Shown here piece by piece: positions 11,352-34,674 of a stretch of 64,000 nt of DNA. Source of the stretch: Chloroflexi bacterium UBA5189 (GTDB taxonomy: Bacteria > Chloroflexota > Limnocylindria > Limnocylindrales > CSP1-4). The notes under the pieces were generated by a model. It was given only the letters and a program-made list of their open reading frames with translations, did no database searches and had not been told where the DNA came from. Where the stretch lies: assembly GCA_002413045.1 (NCBI GenBank), contig DHWF01000051.1, forward strand, positions 90,964 to 154,963. The letters are read 5' to 3'. The translations under genes were made by a program, and so were the position numbers. Each line of letters starts with the position of its first letter. Within the stretch, counting starts at the first letter, position 1.

Positions 11352-14300
11352 TCATCCGACCGACGGGCTCCATGGCTGCGCGTCTGGGTTCGCCGAAAGG
11401 AACGCGTCGATCTCGGCGATGAATGGTCCGGCACGAAGCGGCTCGACGATCGTTCGAGCCTGTCGGACGGCCGCGAGCCCTGCCTCACGATCGCCGATGC
11501 CCACGAGGCAGCGGCCGATGCCCGCGAGCCCGATCGCACGCTCCAGCGGCCACCCGCGGGACTCGAAGAAGGTCGTCGCCTCCGCGAACCCGGCCTGCGC
11601 CTCCGCAAAGGACCCTTCGGCTTCCGCGACCTCGGCCATGGCCAATCGCGTGAGCTGGCCACGCGCGCTCGGACCCGGCGGCGTGGCGCGGGCGAGGACC
11701 CTGTGCGCGAGCGGCAGGTCGCCGAGCCCACGCGCGGTCCGAACGAGGTCGATGGTGGCGAACGTGGTCGTCCCCTCGACCGTGCCATCCACGGCCTCCT
11801 CGATGACACGCCGGGCCTCGTCAGGATCGCCACCCAGGATCGCGGCCCGGGCGGCGTGGTTGGCGGTCATCGTGGGCGGCCAGCCCAGGGCGTGCGCTTG
11901 GGCAATGATCTCCCCGAAATCCGGGACCGGCTCGCCTCGGACGTCCATGATCGCGGCGCTGAGCGCGCGCGCCATCGTCGTGGCATAGCCGTCGCCCCTG
12001 GCAACGGCCCATTCCCGGATGACCGCAGCCTCGGCGAGCGCCTCGTCGTACCAGCCGCCGGTCGAGAGGAGGTCGAGTCGATTCGCTCGCAGATCGATGT
12101 CGGCAAGTCCGTGGTCCCTGGCAAATCCCAATGCCTCGTCGTAGGCGCTGCGCGCGGCCTGGATGTCCCCGACGTCGATCAGCGTCCAGGCGAGATTCGA
12201 GAGACCCGTGAGGACCTGCCGCGTGTCGCCCGTGGAGATCGCCACCTCCACGCCGCGACGCACATCGGCCTCGCCCGAGTCGTCGCGCAGCTCCAGCTTG
12301 ACGACGCCAAGAGCGATATGCGCTGACGCCGGGATCGGCACGCCAAGGTGCTGCGCAGTGGTCATTGCCTGCTGTGCGATGTCGAGTCTGATCTTCGGAT
12401 CCAGCTCACCGCTCATGCGCGCCTGAGCGGCCAGGAGCGCGACCAGGCCGGGACCTGGGGACGCCTCCAGGATCGGACGGGCCGCCGCAATTGCCGCGAG
12501 CGCCGCCTCGTCGTTGCCCATGCCGTGAAACGCCAGCTCTCGCGAAACTACCAGCTCGGCCGCGGCTAGCTCGTTGCCGCGCGCGAGGTGCCACGCATAT
12601 GCCGCGTCGAACATCTCAACCGCCTGTGGGTACTCGGATCGCATGAGGAACGCCCCACCAAGAGCGGTGAGCACGGCGCCGCGCCGCGGATCGTCCTCCG
12701 GGAGCAGCTCGAGCGCCCGACCGAAGTGCTCGGCCGCCCGTGCCGGATTGACCCGCAGCAGATGTTCCGCGGCAGCGACCAGGGCCGTTGCCAGCTCCGC
12801 TCGGATGGCTGGCAGTTGGTCATCGGCACCCGTTGAGACCGCAAGCTCCTCGGCCCGTCGAAGGTGATCCACCACGATCTCCGCCAGGTCCCCAAGCGCG
12901 GCGCCGGCCTTGTCCGTGATCCAGGCCGCCGCAGCGCGGTGCTTCGCCAGGCGCGCGCCGCGGGACAGGAAGCCGTAGGCGACGTCGCGCAGCAGGGAGT
13001 GCCAGAAGCCGTACTCGAGCTCGTCGACCATGGTCGACGGCTGGTTCGAACGTGTGAGCGATCGTCGCTCTAAATCGGACAGGCTCGGTTCGACCGTTCC
13101 TCGATCGCGACCCTCCAGCGACGCCACGGCGCCCGACCAGAAGACGCGCCCGATCACCGAGGCGTCCAGGATCGCCGGCTTCAGCTCGCCCGGAAGCGCA
13201 TCGATCCGCGCCGCGAGGAGCGCCTGGATCGTTGGCGGGACGGCTCGTTCGTCCAGGGTCACCTCCGCTGCCGAGGCCCCACGCTCTCGGACGAGCGCAG
13301 CCAGCTGCTCGGCGTACAGCGGGCTGCCCGCCGCTCGGTCGAGCACAGTCCGGAGCAGTTCCGGTGCGGCGCCGGCCAACGTCGATCCGATCAGGCCGGC
13401 GATCGCCGCATCGTCGAGCGAGACGAGCTGGATCACACGTGACGCGGGTGGTCCCGCGAGCCATTGCGGGTGGCGCTCCGCTGCCTCGGGCCGAGCCGTG
13501 ACGACGAGCAGGATCGGTAGTGGGGATGGGTTCGCGACGAGCTCCAGCAGGAGCGCGACGAGCGCGGTGTCCGCCCAGTGCAGATCCTCGATGACGATGA
13601 CGGCCGGACCATCGATTGCCAGGGATTCGAGGAACCTGCGCCACGCGGCGAATGCCTCCTCCTGCGATGGTGGAACTGCGTCCGTCTGCAGGCCAACGAG
13701 TGGGGCAAGGCGCTCGCGCATCCACGCCCGCAGCACGGGATCGGACTCGGTCAACGCCGCGTCGAGCTTCTCCTGGATGGTGTTCTGGTCGTCGGTCTCG
13801 AGGATCCGGGCGTGCGTCTTCACGATCTCACCGAGGGCCCAGAACGCGATTCCATCGCCATACGGCAGGCACCTGCCGGCTCGCCAGACCGTGGCCGGGG
13901 CGACCGCGTGGACGTGGCGGCCGAGCTCCCGGATGAGCCGACTCTTCCCGAGTCCAGGCTCCGCGACCACGGTGACCACCTCGAATGCATGCTTCGCGGC
14001 GGCAGACGCAAAGGCGCGGCGTAGCGAATCCAGCTCGGCGTCGCGGCCCACGAACGGGGTCGCCTCGCTGTCCTCGGCTCGGACCGCGGTGGTCCGGGCC
14101 TCCGTCGGGTGCCAGATGTGCACCGGCTCCGCGATGCCCTTGAGCGCGACGGCTCCGAGGTCGTCCCACTGGAACTCGCGGGCGGCCAGCCGGTAGGTCT
14201 GCTCGCCGACCGCGACGCCGTCCACCGGGGCGACGCCCTGGATCCGCGCCGCGATGTTCATGGAGCCGCCGGTCGCGAGGCTCTCCTCCGGGTTCCGTCC

Positions 14301-14648
14301 CCCGTCGACACGGACGACCGCCTCGCCCGTATGCACGCCGATCCGAACGTGCAGGTCGAGGCCTGAAACGGTCACGTCACGCAGGATCGCGAGCGACGCT
14401 CGGACTGCGCGGGTCGGATCATCCTCGTGTGCAGTCGGCGCACCGAACACGCCGACGACCGCATCACCGATGAACTTCTCGACCGTCCCGCCGTGAGACT
14501 CGATGACTCGCCTGGCCCGGCCGTGGTAGGTCGACAGCAGCCGTTCCACGTCCTCGGGGTCCAGCCGCTCCGCCATGTCGGTGGAGCCGACGACGTCGCA
14601 GAACAGCGCGGTGATGACCTTCCGTTCGATCTCCCGCCGCGGTTCCAC
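11352..14648 (-). CDS. class III adenylate/guanylate cyclase domain fused to AAA/STAND ATPase and TPR repeats
   Basis: N-terminal cyclase motifs (ITALFCDVVGSTDMAERL, KFIGDAVVGVFGAP, RIGVHTGEAV). P-loop AEPGLGKSRL. A long TPR-like C-terminus. GTG start. Confidence 0.88.
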   Translation of the reverse strand: MEPRREIERKVITALFCDVVGSTDMAERLDPEDVERLLSTYHGRARRVIESHGGTVEKFIGDAVVGVFGAPTAHEDDPTRAVRASLAILRDVTVSGLDLHVRIGVHTGEAVVRVDGGRNPEESLATGGSMNIAARIQGVAPVDGVAVGEQTYRLAAREFQWDDLGAVALKGIAEPVHIWHPTEARTTAVRAEDSEATPFVGRDAELDSLRRAFASAAAKHAFEVVTVVAEPGLGKSRLIRELGRHVHAVAPATVWRAGRCLPYGDGIAFWALGEIVKTHARILETDDQNTIQEKLDAALTESDPVLRAWMRERLAPLVGLQTDAVPPSQEEAFAAWRRFLESLAIDGPAVIVIEDLHWADTALVALLLELVANPSPLPILLVVTARPEAAERHPQWLAGPPASRVIQLVSLDDAAIAGLIGSTLAGAAPELLRTVLDRAAGSPLYAEQLAALVRERGASAAEVTLDERAVPPTIQALLAARIDALPGELKPAILDASVIGRVFWSGAVASLEGRDRGTVEPSLSDLERRSLTRSNQPSTMVDELEYGFWHSLLRDVAYGFLSRGARLAKHRAAAAWITDKAGAALGDLAEIVVDHLRRAEELAVSTGADDQLPAIRAELATALVAAAEHLLRVNPARAAEHFGRALELLPEDDPRRGAVLTALGGAFLMRSEYPQAVEMFDAAYAWHLARGNELAAAELVVSRELAFHGMGNDEAALAAIAAARPILEASPGPGLVALLAAQARMSGELDPKIRLDIAQQAMTTAQHLGVPIPASAHIALGVVKLELRDDSGEADVRRGVEVAISTGDTRQVLTGLSNLAWTLIDVGDIQAARSAYDEALGFARDHGLADIDLRANRLDLLSTGGWYDEALAEAAVIREWAVARGDGYATTMARALSAAIMDVRGEPVPDFGEIIAQAHALGWPPTMTANHAARAAILGGDPDEARRVIEEAVDGTVEGTTTFATIDLVRTARGLGDLPLAHRVLARATPPGPSARGQLTRLAMAEVAEAEGSFAEAQAGFAEATTFFESRGWPLERAIGLAGIGRCLVGIGDREAGLAAVRQARTIVEPLRAGPFIAEIDAFLSANPDAQPWSPSVG

Positions 14649-24672: not shown

Positions 24673-25272
24673 TCAGGGCCCGATGCCCGCGAAGATCTCG
24701 TTGCACAGGGCGCCGAATTGCTGCATGAACGCGGGCAGCGCCGTCGGATCGATCGCGGCGAAGACGCCCTTGCCCGTGGTGTGAACGCTCAGCTGGCCGT
24801 TCCCGCCGGCGATCGAGAGCTCGCAGGTGTCCTGCCCCTTGACCGCGCCGAGGTGCGGGAAGTAGCCCCCGAGCAGGTCCCAGGTCGCGTGGTCTCCGAT
24901 ACCACTGATCGGAGTGACGCCGGTCGTGCCCATGTCATCGTTGAGCGGGCCCTCTCCCTGGCCGACGTTGACGACCACGTTCAAGCCATCGCCGATCGAT
25001 GGGTCGCCGAGGGGCCACGTGCAGTCGCCCGTGTGGTCAGTCGTGGAGGTGCCAAGGGGCGTCGAGAAGAGCGCCTGGACGTCGGCCTCGGTGAGCTTCG
25101 AGCATGGATCGAGGTCCGGCAGCCCGAGGCCGCTCGCGCCTGTCGGAGCGCCGGCTGGCGCATTGGCAACGCTGCCCGCCGACGACGGTCCCGCCGCGCC
25201 ACCGCCAGAGCAGGCGGCCGACCCGGCTGCAACGGCGACCGCCATGAGGCAGGTCACAAGGGTTCTGCGCAT
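24673..25272 (-). CDS. DUF3558-like lipoprotein
   Basis: ATG 25272 preceded by GGAG (GTG 25281 is an alternative). Lipobox SAAC. PCSKLTEADVQALF block resembles 19805..20305. Confidence 0.75.
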   Translation of the reverse strand: MRRTLVTCLMAVAVAAGSAACSGGGAAGPSSAGSVANAPAGAPTGASGLGLPDLDPCSKLTEADVQALFSTPLGTSTTDHTGDCTWPLGDPSIGDGLNVVVNVGQGEGPLNDDMGTTGVTPISGIGDHATWDLLGGYFPHLGAVKGQDTCELSIAGGNGQLSVHTTGKGVFAAIDPTALPAFMQQFGALCNEIFAGIGP

Positions 25273-25319
25273 CCTGTGCACTCCAATCGCCTGTGAAGCC
25301 GCGGCTCACGGCCTGTTGC

Positions 25320-25374
25320 CAGCGTCGCCGCAGTCGATCGCAGATCGGTCGCAAGGCCCGGCTGCGGCGATCGC
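25320..25374 (-). promoter_or_regulatory. SARP-box-like 11-bp-phased heptamer array plus conserved leader (copy A)
   Basis: Minus strand: gcga TCGCCGC agcc GGGCCTT gcga CCGATCT gcga TCGACTG cggc GACGCTG. Homologous to 31005..31047. Confidence 0.5.
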
Positions 25375-25406
25375 ACGCCGGCCGCGAACGCCGGCCGATC
25401 GACGCG

Positions 25407-28400
25407 CTACTGGCTTGAACGCACCGTGAACGCGTACGGACCGGTCTCGGTGCCCGACGAGGCGATCCGGATGGTGTAGATGCCTGCGGCCTGGAGCACG
25501 TGCCGCCCGAGGTCGTTGCAGGATCCCGAGATGTCGATGGGCGAACCGTCGGGCCCGAGCAGGCTCCACACCAGCCGACTCGTGGCGCACGTGGCCTGGG
25601 CCTCGAGGTAGACGACCTCGCCGGCGGTTGCCGGGAACGTGTAGTCGGCATGCTGGGACGTCGAAGTGAGCGCGCCGGTCACCGCCCGGCCGATCGTGAT
25701 CGGACCGGCCGCGGTGGCAGGAGTTCCCGAGACCGTGCTTGGCACACCGCCAGCAACGATGCCAGCCTCGGACTCCGCGAAGGAGGCATCGCCGGTCACG
25801 CCCACGTCGAGGATGCAGTCATCCAGCCAGGGTTCCGAATTGACGCCCAGGGCACGGCAGACCGCCTCGGCACTTGCCCGCGCTGCAGGATCGAGTGAGG
25901 CAATCGTCGCGGTCGACGATGGGAAGTCGAGGTGGGTGAAGGTCGCCGTGCTCTCGCCCGCCTGGTAGTCGAACAGCGATTCGGCCTGGGAGATGCGCCA
26001 GCTGTTGCCAAACGGGTCATACAGCTTGGTCTTGAACGCGGGGTCGGTTGGGCGCAGGACGACGCCATCCCGGGTTGTGAGGTCATTGGCCGGGTTGCCG
26101 TCCTCGCTGCCGAGCAGGCCGAGCAACGTGGGACCAACCGCCGGACTCGGCACGAAGCCGAAGTTGAGGGTGGTTCCGAGGCGAGTCACGGTCAGGCGGC
26201 TCCCATCCGGCCAGCCGACGACGACTTCGCCGCCGTGGCGCTGGAGCACGCCGCCGTGGGGCAGCCGTTCCTCGATGTCCGAGGCCTTGATCGCAACGCC
26301 GTTGACCATCAGGGACGCCGGCTCGCGCGAATAGACGCCGACCCGATCCCCATCGACGTTGGCCGCGACCGCCGTGTTGTAGCTCACCGACGATTGCGGG
26401 GTCCACCCCTCTTGGCGGGCCTGAACCTCCACCTTGCCGTCTGGCGACGTCAGGGTGATGAACTCACCAGCACCCTGGAAGTCCAAATGAACTCCGTCGC
26501 CGGTGCGGAAATGGGTGTCGCCGATCGAACAAAAAGTGCACGTTTCGCCATGTGGGCCGGCACACAGGACACCGGTGCAGCTGAATCCCGACGGGCCGTT
26601 CGAGCATGTGCCGAACACGCAGAATGTACGGAGCTGCCCGGCGATGGATGGGAGCCCACAGACGCCGAAGTAACTAGTGCATGTTGCTGTTGATCCCGAC
26701 GAATTGGCGGGCGGGGTCGCGGGCGGGGTCGTGGGCGGGGTATCAGGGCTCCAGCCCGGATCGCACGAACCGTCGGCGTTTGCGGGGACGCCCTCGTGGA
26801 CCGTCAAACCCCCGGCACTAACGTCTCGGGTGCACTCGACGAGTCCGGTGGGATCGACATGGTTGACGGGGTCCGATCCTGCGTATTGATAGAGGTTCGG
26901 GTCGCCACCGGCGAAGTGGATCGGGTCGGGACCGGTCCACGTGCGGGTCGTGGGTTCATAGTCGCGGGCACCGAAATGCACCAGACCCGTGTCTGGGTCA
27001 GCGAGCCCGCCCGCGAAGCCGAACGGAATCGTGCCTGGAGCCGTCTCGCTCGTGATCCGGCCCCAGACGTCATAGGTGATCGCGTCGACGATCGCGCCGG
27101 TGGCGGTGTCGATAACGAATCGTGGGCTCCCGACCGCATCGGTGACGACACGGTAGGACTCGCCGCCGCGCTCGACGAGGGCGAGGCGTCCCAGGTCGTC
27201 GTAGCCGAACTGCATGACGATCGCGCCGGTCCCATCGGTCTCGGCGACGACCCTGCCGGCCGGGTCGTACAGGTACCCGGCCACGAGCTTGCCGCCGACC
27301 TGCCGGCCGATCCGCCGACCGTCGGCGTCGACGAGATACGTGATCGACCGGCCGTCGGCGAGCGTGACTCCACGCAGGCTGCCGAAATCGTCGAACGTGA
27401 ACGCGGTGGTACCGCTGCTGTCGCTGCGCTTCGTCAGCTGGCCGTCGTCGGCCCAGGTGAAGGTTGCCGAGCCGTCGGTGACGAGCCGGTCGCGGTCGTC
27501 GTAGGTTGCCGTCGTCGTGCCGGCGGGCCGCTTGACCGCCGTTCGGTTGCCCGCCGCATCGTAGGTATCCGTCTCGGTGGTGGCTCCGTTCACCTTGACC
27601 GATGCGAGGCGGTCCGCGCCGTCGTAGGCGTAGGCCGTTGTCGTGGTGCCGCTGGGGGCCGTCTCCGCCACCGTCACGACCCGGCCGATGTCGTCGCGGG
27701 TATAGCGGACGTCATCCACGACCTTGCCCGAGACGGTCGTCGTGGAGCGGATCAGCCGGTCAGTCGCGTCGTACTGCTGATCGGTCTGGACGCTTCCAGC
27801 GATCGTGCGGGTAACCAGCCCCGACGTGGGATCGCGTGTCAGGGCCAGCCCGGCCACGCCGGTCAACAGACCGGCCGGATCGTAGGTCAGCGCGATGCCG
27901 GCCGATCCGCCGGCCGCCTCGCTTACGGCACGCCCGTTTGCATCGAGGGTGACGGTCACGGACCCCGTGAGCGGACCTGACCAGCCCAGCTTATCGACGA
28001 CGGCGCCCGCATAACCGTAGGTCGTGGTCACCCCGCCCGGATCGATGGCCTGCGCTCGGAGATGCGTGGTTGGGTCATAGACCGCTGAACCCGTGCCCAC
28101 ATCGAAGGTCCAGCCGACCAGCCGCCCGGCCGTGTCGTAGGCGAGCTGAATTGCCCGCTTGCCGAGACCCGCCACGCTGATCGGCCGTCCGTCGCCGTCA
28201 TAGGTGGTCAGCTCGGCGGAGGTATCCGTCCCGACTGCCGGCGGAAGGAAGGCGGTCGGGCGGCCGGCCGGGCTGGTGCCGACCGCGAACTGCAATCCGC
28301 CGGGTGGTTGGACCTGCGCGAGGCGACCGTCTGCGTCATAGCCGGTGACCAACGTCGATCCATCCGGTGCCGTCGTCGTGGTCGCCCGGCCGTCCGCGTC

Positions 28401-29948
28401 GACGGCGACGAGAACCACGCGACCATCGGGACGGGTGACCGATTCCTGGCCGTTCGACGTGTCGTAGCTGAAGCGCGTGGTCTGGCTGCCCGCACCCGAC
28501 CCGACCGTCTGGCTGGACTCGCGGCCCTGGGCGTCGTAGGTGCGGGAGACCGTCGGACTGCTTGGTCCGGAGGAGGAGACGAGCCGCCCGTCTGCGTCGT
28601 AGCCGTCGACCAGCTTGCGGCCGGCGGGATCAACGAGCGTGGAGGTTCGGGCGCTCGGATCGAACGTCTGCACCCATGCCTGCCCGTTGACCGTGCTGGT
28701 GATTGAGCCGGCCAGCGCGTACGGCAGGCCGCCGGTCGACTTCAGGGCTTGCGCGACGTCGGTTTTGGACACGACCCCGTCGGGGCGGGTCGCCACCTGG
28801 GGCGTCAGCACGGGCGCGGACATGCCCCAGGTGTCGCTGGCCACCGTACCGAGGGCGAGTGACGACCCGTCGGCAAAGGTGATCGAGCGGGCGCCATCGG
28901 CACTTGTCGTCTCCGACGTGGTCGCCCCATCTGGCCCGACGAACGTGCGCTGGATTCCGCCGCTCTCCGCCGCGGTCCGGAATGTCGAAACGCGTCCGAG
29001 CGTGGTCGTCTCACGGATCTCGACCGTCGTTTCCGACGCGCTCCTCGCCGTCAGCTGGGCGACCCCGTCTGCATCCGTCGAGCTGGCCAGCCTACCGGCC
29101 TGGTCATAGCCGAACCGCGTCACGCCGCCGACCGGGTCGGTTTCGGACGTCACCAGGCCGCCGGGAGCCCAGCTGATCGACGTCGTGCCACCACTCGGGC
29201 TGCGCACGCCGACGAGCTGCCCGCCGGCATCCAGCTCCAACGTCGTGGCGGCGCCGTCGATGCCGACGAGCGCGGTTGGTGCCCCATCGGCGGATCGCTG
29301 GACAGCGAGGTGGGCCGGTTGCGCACCTACCGACCCATCGACGGCGCTCAGGCGCCCGGCCGCGTCGTAGGCCAGGGTCAGAAGGGTCGTTCCGAGGCGT
29401 CCGTCGACGGTCCGAATGTGGTGACCGGCCACATCGAAGATATACGCCGTTGACGCGTCGAAGCTGGGAACGGCCTGGCCCCCGGCCGCGAGCGATACGC
29501 CCGCGGCGAATCGCCACGACCCATCTCCGGCGATGAGGATTCCATCAGCCGCGTCGTAGCGCTGGAGCACGTTGATCGACCAGCCGCCGAGGCCAAGGCC
29601 GTCCGCGTCCCAGTTTGGTCGGTCCTGCCGCCCGACGGCCCACTGGCTCGAGTAGGTCAGGGCCAGATTCGTGTCGACGATCGGGATCGACAGCGTCGCT
29701 GCCTGCTGGTCGCACGGCACGTATCCAGCCGGGTCGCACTCCTCGAGACTCGTCGGCGCCACCGGGCTCGGGCCTTCGGTGGGAGAGGCGGGTGAGGCTG
29801 CAGTGGGCGGAGGAGGCGTCGTCGTGCACGACGCGAGCAGCAGAACCGCGCACGCAGTGGTGCCCAGCCTCCCGAGGACGAGCCTGGTGTGACGCAATCG
29901 GGTGGCCCGCGGACCGCCGATCACGTGCACGGCCTCATGCCGCGACAC
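25407..29948 (-). CDS. RHS/YD-repeat lipoprotein with RHS core, then a Cys-rich linker, a VWD domain and a PPC-like C-terminal domain
   Basis: Lipobox LLASC. Dozens of YD repeats (YDxxGRL). RHS core end YQYAGSDPVNHVDPTGL. Then GDTHFRTGDGVHLDFQGAGEFITL (VWD-like) and a terminal beta-rich segment ...IYTIRIASSGTETGPYAFTV. Confidence 0.9.
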   Translation of the reverse strand: MSRHEAVHVIGGPRATRLRHTRLVLGRLGTTACAVLLLASCTTTPPPPTAASPASPTEGPSPVAPTSLEECDPAGYVPCDQQAATLSIPIVDTNLALTYSSQWAVGRQDRPNWDADGLGLGGWSINVLQRYDAADGILIAGDGSWRFAAGVSLAAGGQAVPSFDASTAYIFDVAGHHIRTVDGRLGTTLLTLAYDAAGRLSAVDGSVGAQPAHLAVQRSADGAPTALVGIDGAATTLELDAGGQLVGVRSPSGGTTSISWAPGGLVTSETDPVGGVTRFGYDQAGRLASSTDADGVAQLTARSASETTVEIRETTTLGRVSTFRTAAESGGIQRTFVGPDGATTSETTSADGARSITFADGSSLALGTVASDTWGMSAPVLTPQVATRPDGVVSKTDVAQALKSTGGLPYALAGSITSTVNGQAWVQTFDPSARTSTLVDPAGRKLVDGYDADGRLVSSSGPSSPTVSRTYDAQGRESSQTVGSGAGSQTTRFSYDTSNGQESVTRPDGRVVLVAVDADGRATTTTAPDGSTLVTGYDADGRLAQVQPPGGLQFAVGTSPAGRPTAFLPPAVGTDTSAELTTYDGDGRPISVAGLGKRAIQLAYDTAGRLVGWTFDVGTGSAVYDPTTHLRAQAIDPGGVTTTYGYAGAVVDKLGWSGPLTGSVTVTLDANGRAVSEAAGGSAGIALTYDPAGLLTGVAGLALTRDPTSGLVTRTIAGSVQTDQQYDATDRLIRSTTTVSGKVVDDVRYTRDDIGRVVTVAETAPSGTTTTAYAYDGADRLASVKVNGATTETDTYDAAGNRTAVKRPAGTTTATYDDRDRLVTDGSATFTWADDGQLTKRSDSSGTTAFTFDDFGSLRGVTLADGRSITYLVDADGRRIGRQVGGKLVAGYLYDPAGRVVAETDGTGAIVMQFGYDDLGRLALVERGGESYRVVTDAVGSPRFVIDTATGAIVDAITYDVWGRITSETAPGTIPFGFAGGLADPDTGLVHFGARDYEPTTRTWTGPDPIHFAGGDPNLYQYAGSDPVNHVDPTGLVECTRDVSAGGLTVHEGVPANADGSCDPGWSPDTPPTTPPATPPANSSGSTATCTSYFGVCGLPSIAGQLRTFCVFGTCSNGPSGFSCTGVLCAGPHGETCTFCSIGDTHFRTGDGVHLDFQGAGEFITLTSPDGKVEVQARQEGWTPQSSVSYNTAVAANVDGDRVGVYSREPASLMVNGVAIKASDIEERLPHGGVLQRHGGEVVVGWPDGSRLTVTRLGTTLNFGFVPSPAVGPTLLGLLGSEDGNPANDLTTRDGVVLRPTDPAFKTKLYDPFGNSWRISQAESLFDYQAGESTATFTHLDFPSSTATIASLDPAARASAEAVCRALGVNSEPWLDDCILDVGVTGDASFAESEAGIVAGGVPSTVSGTPATAAGPITIGRAVTGALTSTSQHADYTFPATAGEVVYLEAQATCATSRLVWSLLGPDGSPIDISGSCNDLGRHVLQAAGIYTIRIASSGTETGPYAFTVRSSQ

Positions 29949-29966
29949 GCGTTGTCCTGACTGGAG

Positions 29967-30956
29967 TCACGGCTGGATCGGTGCGACCGCGAGGTGCAGG
30001 TCGGTGACGGAGGTGCCGTAGATAAAAGCCAGCGTCTGCTGGCCTGCCGTCAGGTCGACGCTCAGCTGGCCCTGTTTGGGCGTGAGCCCAGAACATGTCG
30101 GCAGGGTGCTGTCGCCGTTCGCAACGACCGAGATCTGGTGCGTCCCCGGGGTGGTTGCGAAGACCGCCTCCGACGAGCCGGATCCAGATGCGGCAAAGAC
30201 GTACGGCAGCCCCGGCTCCTGGCTGGCATCGCCGTTCAAGGGCGGATCGCAGGACGCGTCGACGAAGAAGTAGTACCCAACGTTGCCGCCCGTGAGCGAC
30301 AGAAGATTCTCGCCGGACACGACGCTATCGCTCGCCAGTAACTCTGCCTGGCCCGCGGCCGGTGGCGGTGCGACCGGACCCACGCCCCCGTTCGCGTCGT
30401 CGCCCTTCTCGACGAGTGAACTGACACCAAGCTCGCAGATCGGCCCGGTCCCCAAGCAGCCCGACCCGCTCTTGCCCTGGCTCGACAGGATGAGGGTCTC
30501 CTGCAGGTTCGAACCGTCGTCCTGATACCCGCCGACCCCCTTCCCATCAGTGAGGCTGAGGGCAGCGGGATCCTCCCCCGTCGGGAGCACGTACATCCGG
30601 ACGATCCCGCCTGTCTCATGTGGGTGCACGTAGGCCGAGAACGAGCCGTAGGCGACCCCCGTCAGGATCGGCGTGGCGGCCTGGCCCACGGGCGTGTCAT
30701 AGAGGTCGAGGGCAGGCCCCGGCGCGAGGTTCTGGTCGGCGTAGAAGTTCCCGATCCGCACCGACGTCTGGCCCGCCTGCCCTGGCGAGGACGCGCCCCC
30801 GATTGCCGGCGACCCATCAGATCCGCCAGGACTGCCAGCTCCGGGCGTAGCTCCGCCATCGGCGGCGGTCGTAGGAGCAGTGCCGGAACCACTGCAGGCG
30901 GCCAGCGCCGATGCAAGGGCGACCGCCGCGAGGCCGGTCAAGACGCGACTGCGCAT
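29967..30956 (-). CDS. secreted lipoprotein, function unknown, first gene of the RHS operon
   Basis: MRSRVLTGLAAVALASALAACSGSG (lipobox LAAC). Its stop is 18 nt before the RHS start. Beta-rich mature part. Confidence 0.75.
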   Translation of the reverse strand: MRSRVLTGLAAVALASALAACSGSGTAPTTAADGGATPGAGSPGGSDGSPAIGGASSPGQAGQTSVRIGNFYADQNLAPGPALDLYDTPVGQAATPILTGVAYGSFSAYVHPHETGGIVRMYVLPTGEDPAALSLTDGKGVGGYQDDGSNLQETLILSSQGKSGSGCLGTGPICELGVSSLVEKGDDANGGVGPVAPPPAAGQAELLASDSVVSGENLLSLTGGNVGYYFFVDASCDPPLNGDASQEPGLPYVFAASGSGSSEAVFATTPGTHQISVVANGDSTLPTCSGLTPKQGQLSVDLTAGQQTLAFIYGTSVTDLHLAVAPIQP

Positions 30957-31004
30957 GTGTCTGGACTCCGATCGCTGGATGAGCCGCGGATCACGGCCGG
31001 TCGC

Positions 31005-31082
31005 CAGCGTCGCGGGAGCCGATCGCAGATCGATCGCAAAGACCGGCCGGGTCGATCGCGGCTCGACCGCGGCTCGACCGCG
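31005..31082 (-). promoter_or_regulatory. SARP-box-like array: six 11-bp-phased units including 2 perfect TCGAGCC heptamers (copy B)
   Basis: Minus strand: TCGAGCC gcgg TCGAGCC gcga TCGACCC ggcc GGTCTTT gcga TCGATCT gcga TCGGCTC ccgc GACGCTG. Lies between the SARP gene stop and the lipoprotein start. Confidence 0.55.
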
Positions 31083-31094
31083 ATTCGGGGCCGC

Positions 31095-34000
31095 TTACGC
31101 TCGGGCGCGCCGCAGGGGCGTCGGGGCCTGGGTCGGGCGGGCGAGGTCTCGGGCGATGGCGAGCGCGGCCGTGAGCGCCGCAGCGGTACCGTTCGCCGCC
31201 GTCCCGACCACGGCGGCCTGATCCATTTGCCGCTCCGCAGGGATCGGCAGGCGGGCCTGCAGCGCCTCGACGTCGGCCGCCTCGGTCGGGGCGACCGGCT
31301 GGTGGATGGCCTCGCGGATCGCCCGCGCCTCGTCCAGCAGGCGAGCCGCGCCGTCGGTGTGGGCCAGGACGGCCAATCGCGCCACCGCCTCGAGGCCATC
31401 GGCGAGGACCCACCGATCGGTCACCGGATCCACCGCGAGCAGCGCCTCGCTGAGGTGGGCGGCAGCGCTCGCCGTGTCGCCTGCATCGAGATCCAGGCGA
31501 GCGAGGTTGATGTGCCCGAAGGCGACCGTGGTGCGCGTGCTGCCGAGCTCCCCCGCCTCGATTGCCTGCAAGGCATACCGTCGTGCGGCGCGAGGACGCC
31601 CGAGCCCGCGGGCGACCGCGGCCAGTCGGTAGCTGACGGTCCCCTCGGTGGGGCGATGGCCGAGCTGCTGGAACACCGTCAGCGCTTCCTCGCCTGCCTG
31701 CATGGCGGCAGCCAGGTCTCCGGCCTTCCAATGCGCGAGTGTCAGGCCGGCCAGGGCATGGCCGCGGGCGAGCGGGTCGCCGGATGCGACGGCGATGGCA
31801 AGGGCGCGTTGCAGGAGCGGCTGCGCCTCGTCGCGCGGGCTCTGGTCCGCCAGGAGCGACCCCAGGTGGACCAGCGTCGTACCGATCTCGCGCTCCACCC
31901 CGGCCTCGTCGAGACGAACCAGGGAGGCCTCGAGGAATTCGCGCGCGTCATCCACGTCGTCGGTTGCGGCCGCGATCGCACCGAGGCGCCGTAACGCTCG
32001 GCCTTCGCCCAGCGGGTCGCCGATCGTCGCGAATCGTGCACGCGCCTCCGTCCCCATGTCGCGACCCACCGCGAAGTCCGTAAGCCAGTAGGCGAGATGC
32101 GCGCCGCTGAGGGCGGCCTGGGCATGCAGGGCGCTGGTCGGCGCAGCGGCCGCCTCCAGCCGCCGCAGCCAGTCCAGGCCCTCGGCCGGGTGGCGACCGA
32201 GCCAGTAGTCGGTCATGGCGACGGCCATCTCGAGGGCACGTTCAGCCGGCTCCGCGTCCGGCGAGGCGGCACAGCGGGCCAACACGGCGCGTACGTGTGG
32301 CATCTCGCGGTCCAGGAGCTGCAGCGCAGCCGAGCGATCAGGGCTGGCCAGCCGACCGGCCAGTGCCGCGGCGCGTGCGAGAACAGCGTCCTCATAGTGG
32401 CCGCGCGCGGCGGTTACGAGCACGGCGTCGCCGGTCTCGAGGGTGTGGACGGAGATCGTGCGAAGGAGCTCGTAGCGGGTCGGACCGTCGGCGCTGCGGA
32501 CGTGGACGAGGCTCGCATCCACGAGGCGCGCGATAGCGTCGAAGACATCGAGGTGCGGATCTGCAGGATCGATGACTGCCGCGATGAGGGCCGCGTCGGC
32601 GTCCGCGACCATGGCGGCGAGGGCGACCATCACGCGCCGCTCGAGCGGGCCAAGGCGCGCCACGCTCGCGTCGAGGGCGGCCCACAGGCCGGTCCGGCCG
32701 CGTGTCGGGCCGCCTGCCCATCGGCTCAGGTCCCTCTCGACGCGCTCGGTCAACTCGTCCAGCCGCAGCAGATGGAGGTGGCGAGCGACCAGCTCCAGGC
32801 CGAGCGGCAGCCGGTCCACCAGCCCGCACAGTCGCTCCGCGGTCGCCACCTCGTCGGCCCGCATCTCGAAGTGGGGGTCGACCAGCTTGGCACGGTCGAT
32901 CAGCAGCTCCAGCGCCTCCGATTCCGCCAGCGGCCCGACCGGGATGAGCGACTCGTCGAACACGCCGAGGCGCTCGCGGCTGGTCGCCAGCACGCGGACC
33001 CCGGAGCATTCCGCGACGATGGTGTCGACCTCAGCGGCGACATCCGCCGGCCTCACCTCGCATCCATCCAGGACGAGCAGGCCGGTCGCATCCGCGAGGG
33101 CCTGGATCACGCCCTCGCGTGCATCGGTCGCCAGCGAGGACGGGGCCACGACGTCAAGGACCGCAGCTGCAACCGATCGCTCCGAGGGCAGCTGGTCGAG
33201 GGCGACATACCAGACCTCGATCGATGCGGTGCGGGCGGCCTCGACCGCGAGGCGGGTCTTGCCTGCCCCGGGCGGTCCGATGAGGGTCACGACGCGCGCC
33301 CGCGCCCACACGTCCGCCAGCGCTCGCTGCTCCCGAGCCCGCCCGATCAGCCGAGTTGAGGCGCCGGGCAGCCGCTGGCGGTGCTCGACCGTGGCCCCGC
33401 GCGCGACCGGGGGGTCGAGCGCCGGATCCTGGGCCAGGACGGCCTGCTGCATGCGCCGGAGTCCTGGACCCGGTTCGATACCGAGATCGTCGACGAGCCC
33501 GCGCCGGCATTCGGCGTACACGTCGAGCGCCTCGGCCTGGCGGCCCGCCCGGTACAGCGCGAGCATCAGCAGCTCCCACCGACGCTCGCGGTATGGCTGT
33601 TCGGCCGTCAGGCCGCGCGCCGCCGCCACCAGCCCACCGTCACGGGCGTCGTCGTCGAGCTCGGCGGCAAGGAGGTCCTCGCGCAGGCCCGCGACTAGAT
33701 CCTCGATTCGTGCCGCCTCGACCTGGGCAACGGACACATGTTCGAGGTCGGGAAGCGGCCGGCCGCGCCACAGTGCCAGGGCACCGCGGAGGGCGACCAT
33801 CGCCCGCCGGGGTTCAGGAGCAAGCGCCTCGCGGCCTTCGGCGGCGAGTCGGTCGAGTGCCTGGATGTCCGTGGCCGTATCCAGCCTGTACCCGTCGCCC
33901 GATGCCGGGATCGAGAGGCCCAGCCGGCGCAGCCGTGAGACGTGAGCGGCGATGGTGTGCCGCGCCGTCAGCGGTGGGTTATCGCCCCAGACCGCGGCCT

Positions 34001-34136
34001 CGAGCTCGTCGAACGGCACGCCGCGCCCGGCCTCCAGGCCCAAACGTGCCAGCAGACGTCGCTGCCGCCGTCCCCCCGGCGCGATTGCCGCCGGCCCGTC
34101 CCGGATCTCGAGCGGCCCCAGGAGCCCGACTTCCAC
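31095..34136 (-). CDS. AfsR/SARP family regulator: OmpR-type wHTH + BTAD + NB-ARC ATPase + TPR
   Basis: MEVGLLGPLEI...RRLLARL...HVSRLRRLG (wHTH). BTAD (ALALWRGRPL, YRERRWELLMLALYRAGRQAEALDVY). P-loop GPPGAGKTRLA. Long TPR tail. Confidence 0.88.
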   Translation of the reverse strand: MEVGLLGPLEIRDGPAAIAPGGRRQRRLLARLGLEAGRGVPFDELEAAVWGDNPPLTARHTIAAHVSRLRRLGLSIPASGDGYRLDTATDIQALDRLAAEGREALAPEPRRAMVALRGALALWRGRPLPDLEHVSVAQVEAARIEDLVAGLREDLLAAELDDDARDGGLVAAARGLTAEQPYRERRWELLMLALYRAGRQAEALDVYAECRRGLVDDLGIEPGPGLRRMQQAVLAQDPALDPPVARGATVEHRQRLPGASTRLIGRAREQRALADVWARARVVTLIGPPGAGKTRLAVEAARTASIEVWYVALDQLPSERSVAAAVLDVVAPSSLATDAREGVIQALADATGLLVLDGCEVRPADVAAEVDTIVAECSGVRVLATSRERLGVFDESLIPVGPLAESEALELLIDRAKLVDPHFEMRADEVATAERLCGLVDRLPLGLELVARHLHLLRLDELTERVERDLSRWAGGPTRGRTGLWAALDASVARLGPLERRVMVALAAMVADADAALIAAVIDPADPHLDVFDAIARLVDASLVHVRSADGPTRYELLRTISVHTLETGDAVLVTAARGHYEDAVLARAAALAGRLASPDRSAALQLLDREMPHVRAVLARCAASPDAEPAERALEMAVAMTDYWLGRHPAEGLDWLRRLEAAAAPTSALHAQAALSGAHLAYWLTDFAVGRDMGTEARARFATIGDPLGEGRALRRLGAIAAATDDVDDAREFLEASLVRLDEAGVEREIGTTLVHLGSLLADQSPRDEAQPLLQRALAIAVASGDPLARGHALAGLTLAHWKAGDLAAAMQAGEEALTVFQQLGHRPTEGTVSYRLAAVARGLGRPRAARRYALQAIEAGELGSTRTTVAFGHINLARLDLDAGDTASAAAHLSEALLAVDPVTDRWVLADGLEAVARLAVLAHTDGAARLLDEARAIREAIHQPVAPTEAADVEALQARLPIPAERQMDQAAVVGTAANGTAAALTAALAIARDLARPTQAPTPLRRARA

Positions 34137-34176
34137 AGGTGGACTCTAGCCGGGCTCGCCGGATCGAGGACAAACC

Positions 34177-34674
34177 TTAGCGGCCAGCGCCCCCGTCGAG
34201 CCACGCGCGGACGCTCGGGACGTGCTCGTCATGGAGGTGGCCGGTGAATTCGACGTCCACCAGCGGACCATCGATAAAGGGAATGGCTCTTGAATCCATC
34301 AACTTGGCTTGCGGAATCGTCTCGATGATCGCGACCAGGCGGTCGTACGAGTTGGTGTAGTCGTCGACCAGCTGGGCTGCCGAGCGGTCGGCATGGTGGT
34401 CGTGAATCCAGGCATTCACCGGATCGTCGGATTCATCACCGTCGAGCTCCGCGGGCCACGGATTCGGCGGATCGGATTCGCCGCGGGCGAACGCATCGAG
34501 ACGCCGAAGCGTCCGGTTCCGCCAGCCGAGCAGGTGCCCGGCCATGTCGCCAAAGGTCCACTCCCCCATCGGGCCCGGCTCCGAATATCGATCTGGCCCG
34601 ACCTCGGCCGCGAGGTCCCGCCAGAACTGCTGGTCGGCCCCAATGGCGGCGATCTGCTCGGCCCTGGTTCGCAT
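34177..34674 (-). CDS. DinB/maleylpyruvate-isomerase N-terminal (mycothiol-type) domain protein
   Basis: ATG at 34674 preceded by AAGGAGG. WTFGDMAGHLLGW...HDEHVPSVRAWL. Confidence 0.75.
   Translation of the reverse strand: MRTRAEQIAAIGADQQFWRDLAAEVGPDRYSEPGPMGEWTFGDMAGHLLGWRNRTLRRLDAFARGESDPPNPWPAELDGDESDDPVNAWIHDHHADRSAAQLVDDYTNSYDRLVAIIETIPQAKLMDSRAIPFIDGPLVDVEFTGHLHDEHVPSVRAWLDGGAGR

What the first reader, a model, noticed from the sequence alone, without database searches (positions are those of the whole stretch)
31005..31082. Six-unit, strictly 11-bp-phased heptamer array (TCGAGCC type) directly downstream of the SARP-STAND regulator gene and upstream of the lipoprotein/RHS operon
Seen in sequence: on the minus strand, the gap between the SARP gene stop (31095) and the lipoprotein ATG (30956) reads TCGAGCC gcgg TCGAGCC gcga TCGACCC ggcc GGTCTTT gcga TCGATCT gcga TCGGCTC ccgc GACGCTG. 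These are heptamers with 4-nt spacers in one unbroken 11-bp register. Five of six units start with TCG(A/G), and the spacers are mostly GCG(A/G).
Established knowledge: SARP-family activators (OmpR-type wHTH + BTAD) bind direct heptamer repeats with consensus TCGAGXX and 11-bp periodicity, placed at or instead of the -35 region.
Inference: this array is the operator through which the adjacent 1013-aa SARP-NB-ARC-TPR protein activates the lipoprotein-RHS operon. SARPs are classically pathway-specific activators of antibiotic clusters. I am not aware of SARP control of a YD-repeat surface protein being described.
Basis: partly seen in the sequence, partly recalled or inferred. Interest (0 to 1): 0.7.

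Follow-up and report, generated by a model that had tools for sequence, protein, structure and literature searches.

The report
SARP-type activator box for lipoprotein genes
The 11-bp-phased repeats are real and conserved, and most likely form the docking site through which the neighbouring AfsR-like regulator switches on surface-lipoprotein genes; this is a textbook type of site with a new repeat sequence (GCGATCG), new targets and an uncultured host.

Summary
On the minus strand, 31081..31016 holds six 11-bp-phased units between the SARP stop codon (31095) and the lipoprotein ATG (30956).

Across 41 units from orthologous and paralogous copies, the near-invariant heptamer is GCGATCG. The 4 nt after it vary.

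Three units are conserved everywhere: GCGATCG-N15-GCGATCG-N4-GCGATCG. The "GGTCTTT" unit is an unconserved linker. The "GACGCTG" unit is the -10 hexamer (GACGCT), exactly 8 bp after the last heptamer. That spacing is the published SARP/AfsR promoter geometry.

A second copy of the cassette lies at 25321-25374, upstream of a DUF3558 lipoprotein gene.

Of six related SARP genes with the same type of recognition helix, picked by protein similarity alone, five have GCGATCG pairs followed by 8 bp and nAnnnT nearby. These sit in front of lipoprotein-like genes.

The RHS gene is absent from all relatives. It is a lineage-specific insertion into the operon.

No biosynthetic cluster is nearby, and the host looks like a Chloroflexota/Dormibacteria-type MAG.

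Verdict: a new member of the SARP-box kind. It is well supported by comparison between genomes, but binding and the transcription start site are inferred.

The parts
31095..34136 (-). Gene for a 1013-aa large SARP (OmpR-type wHTH, BTAD, NOD/AAA_16, TPR). It has AfsR architecture but is not an AfsR ortholog.
   Evidence: Pfam: BTAD 2.6e-32, Trans_reg_C, AAA_16, TPR_12. PDB: AfsR 8k60, E 1.5e-32 over residues 3-869, and EmbR 2fez. The NCBIfam AfsR equivalog scores 152 bits against a cut-off of 1430.
31071..31081 (-). Unit U0, GCGGTCGAGCC. An extra distal copy found only in this window. It is an exact duplicate of U1 and stays in the 11-bp register.
   Evidence: It is absent from L001, L002, L003, L020 and L021.
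31060..31070 (-). Unit U1, GCGGTCGAGCC. A distal degenerate site (GCGGTCG) conserved only in the lipoprotein-type ('a') cassettes.
   Evidence: Alignments.
31049..31059 (-). Unit U2, GCGATCGACCC. A conserved heptamer GCGATCG (31053-31059), 22 bp upstream of U4.
   Evidence: Conserved in both the a and b cassettes.
31038..31048 (-). It is not a conserved site and only keeps U2 and U4 in phase.
   Evidence: Semi-conserved among a cassettes (Gn(C)CGkTCnnT) but shows no conserved heptamer across a and b cassettes.
31027..31037 (-). Unit U4, (T)GCGATCGATCT. The upstream half of the promoter-proximal pair, at about -38..-32 from the predicted start site.
   Evidence: Invariant or nearly so in 12 of 12 cassettes.
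31016..31026 (-). Unit U5, (T)GCGATCGGCTC. The downstream half of the proximal pair, with the heptamer at about -27..-21.
31006..31011 (-). Predicted -10 hexamer GACGCT (nAnnnT), exactly 8 bp after the U5 heptamer.
   Evidence: Invariant in the orthologs. nAnnnT lies at exactly 8 bp in 22 of 27 exact GCGATC-N5-GCGATC sites. In L001b and L020b the ATG of a lipoprotein ORF follows the hexamer by 6-7 nt, which indicates a leaderless transcript.
30998..31001 (-). Predicted transcription start region, 5-8 nt after the -10 hexamer. This is inferred, not mapped.
   Evidence: Inference from the -10 position and from the leaderless paralogous promoters.
30966..30998 (-). Conserved 5'-UTR. It contains a short hairpin (GGCCG-UGAUCCG-CGGCU in the window; CUGCGG-N7-CCGCAG in relatives) and GCGATCGGAG, which overlaps the Shine-Dalgarno sequence. 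Function unknown.
   Evidence: No Rfam match. Fold z-score is only -1.87.
29967..30956 (-). Target gene 1: a 329-aa lipoprotein with signal peptide and lipobox LAAC. It is all-beta with tandem beta-sandwich domains and has no Pfam family.
   Evidence: lipobox conserved in homologs. AF2 model pLDDT 77, with weak similarity to the PepT extracellular domain.
25407..29948 (-). A 1513-aa RHS/YD-repeat lipoprotein (lipobox LLASC, DPxGL core end, VWD domain). It starts 18 nt after the lipoprotein stop and is probably co-transcribed. It is a lineage-specific insertion.
   Evidence: Pfam and NCBIfam. Sequence. Absent from all related loci.
25321..25374 (-). Second cassette: GCGATCG-N15-GCGACCG-N4-GCGATCG-N8-GACGCT. 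The paralogous duplication runs on through the 5'-UTR and the signal-peptide codons.
   Evidence: (nhmmer E 4.9e-13).
24673..25281 (-). Target gene 2: a 202-aa DUF3558-like lipoprotein.
   Evidence: Pfam DUF3558, 2.6e-6, below the gathering cut-off. Homologs follow the lipoprotein gene in relatives.

Best explanation
The array is the activator-binding part of an activator-dependent promoter, a SARP box.

**Layout.** The conserved core is three direct GCGATCG heptamers, arranged as GCGATCG-N15-GCGATCG-N4-GCGATCG, all on one face of the helix. The proximal pair lies at about -39..-21 and takes the place of a -35 element. A weak -10 hexamer (GACGCT) lies 8 bp after the last heptamer.

**Proposed mechanism, by analogy with the AfsR-afsS initiation complex.** Two SARP domains of the neighbouring AfsR-like regulator bind the proximal pair side by side. 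They contact sigma region 4 and the RNA polymerase core, and recruit the polymerase. Further protomers could occupy the distal heptamers at 31053-31059 and 31064-31070, plus the duplicated one at 31075-31081. The NOD and TPR domains would keep the regulator off until ATP or an unknown signal is bound.

**Output.** The promoter would drive the lipoprotein gene and, in this genome, the RHS gene inserted behind it. A second copy of the cassette would drive the DUF3558 lipoprotein gene.

**Shown here:** the sequence architecture, its conservation, its duplication, and its linkage to this SARP clade. **Inferred:** binding by this protein, activation rather than repression, the start site, and co-transcription of the RHS gene.
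For: 1. **Selection.** The heptamers and the -10 are invariant in six orthologous intergenic regions, while four-fold sites in the flanking genes are 46-66% identical. In 41 units, positions 1-7 (GCGATCG) are nearly invariant and positions 8-11 vary.
2. **Geometry matches the literature.** SARP sites are direct repeats 11 or 22 bp apart, with the 3' repeat 8 bp from the -10. The first 8 bp of each 11-bp repeat are contacted. The afsS -10 is CACTGT (PMC10936776; PMC11301090). Published spacers are 4-15 nt and sites have 2-3 heptamers (PMC10972967). Here TGCGATCG plus 3 variable nt repeats, the spacers are 4 and 15 nt, and nAnnnT lies at exactly 8 bp in 22 of 27 exact sites across at least 9 independent promoter lineages.
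3. **The -10 assignment has independent support.** In L001 and L020 a lipoprotein ORF starts 6-7 nt after the hexamer, so it must be leaderless.
4. **Linkage to the regulator.**
   - L001-L004, L010, L012, L020 and L021 keep the order SARP-array-lipoprotein.
   - Seven SARP homologs were fetched by protein similarity alone. Of the six whose recognition helix is of the RHTI type, five have the array with the -10 within 6 kb: L023, L024 (on both sides), L025, L026 and L028. L029 has none within 4 kb.
   - L027 (49% identity, different recognition helix) has none.
   - About 107 kb of loci without this SARP clade hold no such promoter.
   - Only two cassettes exist in the 64-kb window, both within 6 kb downstream of the SARP gene.
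5. **Recognition helix.** RHTIxxHVxRLR is conserved in the SARPs linked to the array. It differs in AfsR and in the L022 BTAD protein, whose neighbouring repeats are GTTACGC.
6. **No ordinary promoter or terminator.** No sigma-70 consensus promoter and no terminator were found between the genes.
Against: - There are no binding, expression or start-site data.
- The -10 hexamer is weak (GACGCT) and was identified by position and conservation only.
- The conserved heptamer does not match the classical TCGAGXX of small Streptomyces SARPs.
- One array-type SARP (L029) has no array within 4 kb.
- In L025 the SARP gene is not adjacent to the arrays. It lies about 3 and 5 kb away.
- L017 and L018 carry the repeat pair with no SARP gene on their short contigs.
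- Several paralogous SARPs seem to share one heptamer, so the cognate regulator of this particular promoter is not proven to be the adjacent one.
- The composite search patterns were derived after seeing the data.
- Part of the window's tandem-repeat signal comes from a recent 11-bp duplication.
Confidence: 0.7

Rival explanations
1. The array is a genuine activator or repressor site, but another protein binds it. Candidates are a different OmpR/PhoB-type response regulator or a paralogous SARP encoded elsewhere. In that case the adjacency to this SARP gene would be only synteny.
For: - An 11-bp direct-repeat geometry is common to OmpR/PhoB-family winged-helix proteins (established knowledge).
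- Many paralogous SARPs at 57-65% identity share the same recognition helix.
- L017 and L018 have the repeats without a SARP gene on the contig.
- L029 has a SARP gene without repeats.
Against: - The array is linked to SARP genes in different gene neighbourhoods and orientations: downstream, upstream and divergent.
- No response-regulator gene is consistently nearby.
- The 8-bp spacing to the -10 is the SARP hallmark (PMC10936776).
Confidence: 0.17
2. The roughly 100-200 bp cassette is a repeated DNA module (a promoter-bearing repeat) that spreads by duplication or gene conversion. Its internal periodicity would then be a by-product of slippage rather than a set of protein-binding sites.
For: - The cassette occurs at least twice per locus, and the duplication extends into the signal-peptide codons.
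- The window has an exact 11-bp duplicate unit.
Against: - Within the duplicated segments, the heptamers and the -10 are kept while the neighbouring bases diverge.
- Unrelated promoters (L004, L017, L023, L024, L026, L028) share only the heptamer pair and the -10 spacing, not the rest of the cassette.
- There are no terminal inverted repeats. The orientation is always towards a downstream gene.
Confidence: 0.06
3. The array acts at the RNA level, as a 3'-UTR or terminator element of the SARP mRNA, or as a structured leader of the lipoprotein mRNA.
For: - It starts 13 nt after the SARP stop codon.
- The intergenic RNA folds somewhat better than shuffled sequence (z = -1.87, 4 of 200 shuffles fold as well).
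- A small conserved hairpin lies downstream of the array.
Against: - There is no terminator-like stem with a T-run and no Rfam family.
- The same array occurs where no SARP gene is upstream: the b cassettes and the L024 minus-strand site.
- In L001b and L020b the ORF starts 6-7 nt after the hexamer, so the array cannot be in the transcript there.
Confidence: 0.04
4. The array is a neutral tandem repeat with no function.
For: The TRF score is modest, and 58 other low-score repeats exist in the window.
Against: - The array is conserved against near-saturated synonymous sites.
- A second copy exists.
- It recurs next to SARP homologs in other genomes.
Confidence: 0.02

Closest known systems
AfsR and the afs box of the afsS promoter (Streptomyces coelicolor)
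   Same: - The regulator has the same domain order, SARP-NOD-TPR, and aligns over its full length.
- In AfsR, two 11-bp direct repeats replace or overlap the -35 element at -40..-19. The first 8 bp of each repeat are contacted. The 3' repeat is 8 bp from a weak nAnnnT -10 hexamer (PMC10936776, PMC11301090).
- Here the proximal pair TGCGATCG-N3-TGCGATCG sits at about -39..-21.
   Different: - The protein is not an ortholog: 152 bits against a 1430-bit cut-off.
- The heptamer is GCGATCG. The AfsR repeat contains TTCAGC.
- AfsR residue T88, which contacts a base, is Ala here, although R92 is kept.
- There is an extra in-phase heptamer 22 bp upstream, plus distal copies.
- The targets are adjacent lipoprotein genes, not a small pleiotropic regulator.
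- The host is an uncultured, probably non-actinobacterial lineage.
Pathway-specific SARPs (ActII-ORF4, DnrI, RedD, PimR) and their heptamer repeats
   Same: Heptameric direct repeats with 4-nt (up to 15-nt) spacers, 2-3 repeats per site, at or near the -35 region (PMC10972967).
   Different: - The classical TCGAGXX-type heptamer is not what is conserved here.
- No biosynthetic genes are present in the 64-kb window.
- The regulator is of the large STAND type.
EmbR (Mycobacterium tuberculosis)
   Same: It has the SARP fold (wHTH plus BTAD), with 2fez as a PDB hit at E 4.4e-28. It is a SARP-family regulator of cell-envelope genes rather than antibiotic genes; that point rests on established knowledge and was not tested here.
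   Different: EmbR carries an FHA domain instead of NOD-TPR. No comparable heptamer-array regulon of lipoproteins has been described for it.
PhoP PHO boxes and GlnR boxes of actinobacteria (OmpR-family direct-repeat operators)
   Same: 11-nt direct-repeat units recognised by winged-helix domains (established knowledge).
   Different: The core sequences differ (GTTCA-type and GTnAC/GaAAC-type). No response-regulator gene is linked here. The distant lipoprotein homologs carry a TTAC-N7-TTAC motif that resembles those boxes more closely.

Membership tests
SARP-binding site (SARP box) | Two or more direct heptamer repeats | tested here: met
   Three conserved GCGATCG heptamers, plus one or two distal GCGGTCG.
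SARP-binding site (SARP box) | Repeats spaced 11 or 22 bp apart, on the same helical face | tested here: met
   U4-U5 are 11 bp apart and U2-U4 22 bp apart, in 12 of 12 cassettes. The criterion is from PMC10936776.
SARP-binding site (SARP box) | The 3' repeat lies 8 bp upstream of the -10 element | tested here: met
   GCGATCG, then 8 bp, then GACGCT. nAnnnT lies at exactly 8 bp in 22 of 27 sites and in L028. The -10 itself is inferred, with support from leaderless ORFs.
SARP-binding site (SARP box) | The site overlaps or replaces a poor -35 element | tested here: inconclusive
   No sigma-70 consensus promoter was found in 25200-34400, and the proximal pair covers about -39..-21. The start site is not mapped.
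SARP-binding site (SARP box) | Heptamer of the TCGAGXX type (a feature of the small-SARP subgroup, not of all SARPs) | tested here: not met
   The conserved heptamer is GCGATCG. TCGAGCC is read only in U0 and U1.
SARP-binding site (SARP box) | Specific binding and activation by a SARP protein | not testable with these tools
   This needs EMSA or footprinting, in vitro transcription, or genetics.
SARP family regulator (large, AfsR-like) | N-terminal OmpR-type wHTH followed by BTAD | tested here: met
   Trans_reg_C at residues 23-71 (24.1 bits, just below the 26.2 gathering cut-off) and BTAD at 89-234 (112.6 bits). Residues 2-242 align with AfsR and EmbR structures.
SARP family regulator (large, AfsR-like) | Central NOD/NB-ARC-type ATPase and C-terminal TPR | tested here: met
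   AAA_16 at 262-356 (below cut-off) and TPR_12. Full-length alignment to AfsR 8k60.
AfsR (equivalog) | Score above the NCBIfam NF053617 cut-off | tested here: not met
   152.4 bits against a cut-off of 1430.
Cluster-situated antibiotic regulator | Located in or next to a biosynthetic gene cluster | tested here: not met
   33 ORFs across the window were scanned. No PKS, NRPS, terpene or RiPP core enzymes were found.
RHS/YD-repeat protein | YD repeats plus an RHS-associated core ending in DPxGL | tested here: met
   RHS_repeat 2e-54, Rhs_assc_core 6.3e-20. 'VDPTGL' is seen in the translation.

The most novel reading that the evidence does not exclude
A large clade of AfsR-like STAND regulators exists in uncultured soil bacteria of the Chloroflexota/Dormibacteria type. 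These regulators do not control antibiotic clusters. Instead they form small local regulons of surface lipoproteins through a clade-specific GCGATCG box. In this genome an Rhs polymorphic-toxin-like lipoprotein has been captured into such a regulon. Deployment of a contact-dependent weapon or adhesin would then be gated by an intracellular ATP- or ligand-sensing STAND switch.
Probability: 0.3. Interest if true: 0.6.

Novelty: new member of a known kind. Interest (0 to 1): 0.45.

Why it matters
**A directly testable prediction.** The analysis predicts an operator, a -10 element and a start site for a large SARP outside Streptomyces. It defines a new recognition heptamer (GCGATCG) for a sizeable clade of AfsR-like regulators that have no known targets.

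**A different role for the SARP-NOD-TPR architecture.** In these organisms the architecture appears to be wired to cell-surface lipoproteins rather than to secondary metabolism. In one lineage the wiring includes an Rhs protein.

**Practical use.** The motif together with its -10 spacing can serve as a genome-wide regulon finder in these uncultured lineages. The pairing of recognition helix and heptamer (RHTIxxHV with GCGATCG, against other helices with other repeats) adds data towards a SARP specificity code.

**Limit.** The type of element itself is textbook, so a specialist would not find it very surprising.

Tried and rejected
2. **Pair pattern with one mismatch in the window alone.** Not significant: 6 matches against 4.26 expected. 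Only the exact or composite patterns and the comparative data carry weight.
3. **Known RNA families.** None at gathering thresholds in the window, and none at E <= 1 in 30900-31150.
4. **Terminator or sigma-70 consensus promoter.** None found. The RNA fold z-score is only -1.87.
5. **Autoregulatory array upstream of the SARP gene in the window.** None found by nhmmer.
6. **Other SARP, lipoprotein or RHS paralogs in the window.** None.
7. **Function of the lipoprotein.** No Pfam or NCBIfam family. The AF2 model gives only weak beta-sandwich matches, TM 0.33-0.49 to PepT extracellular domains.
8. **SD-proximal GCGATCGGAG as a further in-phase site.** Its distance to U5 is 51 nt in the window and 54-56 nt in relatives. 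It is not in register, so it is not counted as part of the array.
9. **5'-UTR hairpin covariation.** Too little variation to judge.
10. **-10 geometry for the GTTAC-type repeats of L022 and distant homologs.** No nAnnnT at 8 bp. Left unexplained.
11. **Literature.** No paper in the held library links SARPs with Dormibacterota or Chloroflexota, or with a GCGATCG repeat.
12. **Host taxonomy.** Not settled. It rests only on MAG titles (Chloroflexia and Anaerolineaceae) and on names of more distant homologs (Dormibacteraeota and Limnocylindria).
Full report
**1. The observation**

In the window alone the signal is only moderate:
- Tandem Repeats Finder reports a period-11 array at 31048-31082 (3.2 copies, 91% matches, score 56). 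That is one of 59 low-score repeats in the window.
- The site is the best lag-11 self-similar stretch in the 64 kb.
- TCGR at three successive 11-bp steps occurs only here: 3 overlapping matches against 0.57 expected, with 2 of 100 shuffles reaching 3.

On these numbers alone the array would be a curiosity. The weight comes from comparison with other genomes.

**2. The genes around it**

- **31095-34136 (-).** This ORF has Trans_reg_C, BTAD, AAA_16 and TPR domains. It aligns over its whole length with Streptomyces coelicolor AfsR (8k60, E 1.5e-32), and over its first 242 residues with EmbR. It reaches only 152 bits against the 1430-bit cut-off of the AfsR equivalog model. It is therefore an AfsR-like large SARP, not AfsR.
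- **29967-30956 (-).** This ORF has no Pfam or NCBIfam family. Its N-terminus is a lipoprotein signal peptide with the lipobox LAAC, conserved in 20 homologs. That fixes the start codon at 30956.
- **25407-29948 (-).** This is an RHS/YD-repeat protein with its own lipobox, a DPxGL core end and a VWD domain. It starts 18 nt after the lipoprotein stop.
- **24673-25281 (-).** This ORF is DUF3558-like.
- **No biosynthetic cluster.** None of the 33 ORFs scanned across the window is a biosynthetic core enzyme.

**3. Orthologous loci**

I searched genome and metagenome collections with an alignment of the lipoprotein family, and looked up contigs that encode individual homologs. This gave 22 loci.

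- In L001 (=L010), L002, L003, L020 and L021, a SARP of 77-84% identity lies directly upstream of the lipoprotein gene. In L004 (~L012) the SARP is 60% identical.
- None of these loci has an RHS gene. There the lipoprotein gene is followed directly by DUF3558-like genes. The RHS gene of the window is therefore a lineage-specific insertion.
- The intergenic regions of the window, L001, L002, L003, L020 and L021 align with long invariant blocks. Four-fold degenerate sites of the flanking SARP and lipoprotein genes are only 46-66% identical to the window. The array is under purifying selection.

**4. What exactly is conserved**

I aligned twelve cassettes and tabulated 41 units.

- Positions 1-7 of the 11-bp unit, GCGATCG, are nearly invariant. 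Each of positions 1-6 has at most 1 exception in 41 units. Position 7 is G in 35 of 41.
- The last four positions vary.
- In the two promoter-proximal units the heptamer is always preceded by T. This gives eight conserved bases followed by three free ones.

Only the distal unit U1 and its window-specific duplicate U0 read TCGAGCC.

The units, on the minus strand:

| Unit | Coordinates | Sequence | Status |
|---|---|---|---|
| U0 | 31081-31071 | GCGGTCGAGCC | Exact duplicate of U1, present only in this window |
| U1 | 31070-31060 | GCGGTCGAGCC | Conserved in lipoprotein-type cassettes only |
| U2 | 31059-31049 | GCGATCGACCC | Conserved everywhere |
| U4 | 31037-31027 | GCGATCGATCT | Conserved everywhere |
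| U5 | 31026-31016 | GCGATCGGCTC | Conserved everywhere |

**5. A second cassette**

The motif search found a second copy in the window at 25321-25374 (-), between the RHS stop and the DUF3558 start. It reads GCGATCG-N15-GCGACCG-N4-GCGATCG-N8-GACGCT.

- The composite pattern occurs twice in the window and never in 100 shuffles.
- A profile search finds exactly these two copies.
- The paralogy extends about 200 nt, through the 5'-UTR and the signal-peptide codons up to the lipobox. Heptamers and hexamer are kept while their surroundings have diverged.
- The relatives also have a second cassette, 3.4-3.7 kb downstream of the first. It sits in front of other predicted lipoprotein genes that have no homolog in the window.

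**6. The -10 element and the start site**

Exactly 8 bp after the last heptamer lies a hexamer of the form nAnnnT: GACGCT in the window, and GAAGCT, GAACCT, GAGGCT, CATTCT, CATCGT, AAGACT, GACGAT or CACGCT elsewhere.

- Of 27 exact GCGATC-N5-GCGATC matches in 364.6 kb of window plus loci, 22 have nAnnnT at exactly that offset. The chance expectation is about 2% per site given the base composition. These 22 come from at least nine unrelated promoter contexts.
- In L001 and L020 the ATG of a 700-aa lipoprotein ORF (MRTRSLVALLLTSILASAC...) follows the hexamer by 7 and 6 nt. That leaves room only for a leaderless transcript starting at the ATG, and so identifies the hexamer as the -10 element.

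By analogy, the window's lipoprotein transcript should start at about 30998-31001. This puts TGCGATCG of U4 at about -39..-32 and of U5 at about -28..-21. No sigma-70 consensus promoter and no intrinsic terminator lie in 25200-34400.

**7. Comparison with published SARP sites**

- In the AfsR-afsS initiation complex, two SARP protomers bind side by side to two 11-bp repeats at -40..-19. They contact the first eight base pairs of each repeat and not the last three. The afsS -10 is CACTGT (PMC10936776).
- Another structural paper repeats the eight-nucleotide rule (PMC11301090).
- A review gives heptamers with spacers of 4-15 nt and two or three repeats per site (PMC10972967).

The cassette here has spacers of 15 and 4 nt, an 8+3 conservation pattern, an 8-bp distance to an nAnnnT hexamer, and a proximal pair at about -39..-21. 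It fits all of these points.

**8. Is the adjacent SARP the binder?**

This cannot be shown with sequence tools, but I made a test. From 5249 homologs of the regulator I picked seven by identity and contig length only. None was chosen with knowledge of the DNA around it.

| Locus | Identity to the window's SARP | Result |
|---|---|---|
| L023 | 70% | Array directly after the stop codon, in front of a lipoprotein-like gene |
| L026 | 59% | Array directly after the stop codon, in front of a lipoprotein-like gene |
| L024 | 64% | Arrays on both sides, each pointing at a neighbouring gene |
| L028 | 58% | Array in front of the gene preceding the SARP gene |
| L025 | 59% | Two arrays about 3 and 5 kb away, in front of the lipoprotein homolog and a b-type target |
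| L029 | 63% | No array within 4 kb |
| L027 | 49% | No array; different recognition helix (EHTLHNYV) |

- Loci that hold only distant lipoprotein homologs and no SARP of this clade total about 107 kb. They contain no array with a -10.
- The recognition helix RHTI(A/T)(A/T)(H/Y/N)VxRLR is shared by all array-linked SARPs. It differs in AfsR (AVRTYASRLRK) and in the divergent 993-aa BTAD protein of L022.
- In L022, the intergenic region towards the lipoprotein homolog carries a different 11-bp repeat, GTTACGCCGGG x2.

I read this as good but indirect evidence that this SARP clade recognises GCGATCG.

**9. Mechanism proposed**

The array is the activator site of a promoter that lacks a -35 element. 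The steps below are all inferred.
- SARP domains of the adjacent regulator bind U4 and U5 as a side-by-side dimer.
- They contact sigma region 4 and the polymerase core, as AfsR does.
- Further protomers of the oligomerising NOD protein could bind U2, U1 and U0 on the same helical face.
- The NOD and TPR domains keep the protein inactive until ATP or an unknown signal is bound (PMC10936776 abstract).

The output is the lipoprotein gene, with the RHS gene as a passenger in this genome. The second cassette drives the DUF3558 lipoprotein gene. Sequence architecture, conservation, duplication and linkage are shown. Binding, the sign of regulation, the start site and co-transcription of the RHS gene are inferred.

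**10. Rival explanations**

- **A different winged-helix regulator or a paralogous SARP binds the site (0.17).** This is the main alternative, because several paralogs share the helix.
- **A spreading promoter cassette (0.06).** This explains how copies arise but not why only the heptamers and the hexamer stay constant.
- **RNA-level roles (0.04).** These are contradicted by the leaderless copies, the absence of a terminator or Rfam family, and a weak fold z-score.
- **A neutral repeat (0.02).** This is contradicted by the conservation.

**11. Host and novelty**

- The closest genome loci come from MAGs titled 'uncultured Chloroflexia' or 'Anaerolineaceae bacterium'.
- More distant SARP homologs are named Candidatus Dormibacteraeota, Dormiibacterota or Limnocylindria.
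- The host is thus probably not an actinomycete, but I did not settle this.
- No paper in the held library links SARPs with these phyla or with a GCGATCG repeat.

The element is a SARP box of the known kind with a new heptamer, new targets and a new host range. I file it as a new member of a known kind, with interest 0.45.

The consensus match, the unit count and the emphasis on RHS do not.

Noticed in passing
window 25321-25374 (-) and on to about 25230: A second copy of the promoter cassette lies upstream of the DUF3558 lipoprotein gene. The duplication (about 200 nt) includes the 5'-UTR and the signal-peptide and lipobox codons of the lipoprotein gene. The DUF3558 gene therefore seems to have acquired its promoter and export signal from its neighbour.
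   Followed up: yes
window 25407-29948 (-): The RHS/YD gene is absent from all related loci, where DUF3558 genes follow the lipoprotein gene directly. It looks like an insertion into the operon. The protein has a lipobox (LLASC), a DPxGL core end near residue 1080, and an unusual C-terminal region of about 430 aa with a VWD domain.
   Followed up: partly
L005, L008, L009, L015, L016 (upstream of distant lipoprotein homologs); L022 5670-5700: Distant homologs of the lipoprotein (42-48% identity) carry a different conserved upstream motif, ATTACnnnGACGTTAC, with TTAC at an 11-bp phase. In L022 a divergently transcribed 993-aa BTAD protein faces GTTACGCCGGG x2. The lipoprotein family may be under direct-repeat winged-helix control in several lineages, with different boxes.
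   Followed up: partly
window 30966-30998 (-), and the same part of the other cassettes: The 5'-UTR is conserved. It has a short hairpin (CTGCGG-N7-CCGCAG in relatives; GGCCG-N7-CGGCT in the window, which has a 3-4 nt deletion shared by both window cassettes) and GCGATCGGAG overlapping the Shine-Dalgarno sequence. It is not in the 11-bp register. Function unknown, and no Rfam match.
   Followed up: partly
L001 10073 and L020 9537: A 700-aa lipoprotein gene begins 6-7 nt after the -10 hexamer of a b-type cassette, which implies a leaderless mRNA. In L020 the reading frame appears disrupted, and the translation turns into low-complexity Arg/Pro/Ser-rich sequence.
   Followed up: partly
window 11352-14648 (-): A second STAND-type signalling protein of 1098 aa: adenylate/guanylate cyclase domain, AAA_16 and TPR.
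   Followed up: no
window 29967-30956 (-); protein P0001: The public (JGI) gene call for the identical lipoprotein is 264 aa. It starts 65 codons downstream of the conserved signal peptide and lipobox, so the database entry is N-terminally truncated.
   Followed up: yes
window 25407-34136: The SARP, lipoprotein and RHS genes have lower third-position GC (0.82-0.85) than most genes of the window (0.87-0.96). The gene upstream of the SARP gene differs between the window (DinB/MDMPI-like) and its relatives (peptidase M24). The SARP-array-lipoprotein unit therefore behaves as a movable module.
   Followed up: partly
L024 5967 (-) and 9197 (+): One SARP homolog is flanked by arrays on both sides, each oriented towards a different small neighbouring gene. 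Its downstream array has four heptamers, one of them a single base out of phase.
   Followed up: partly
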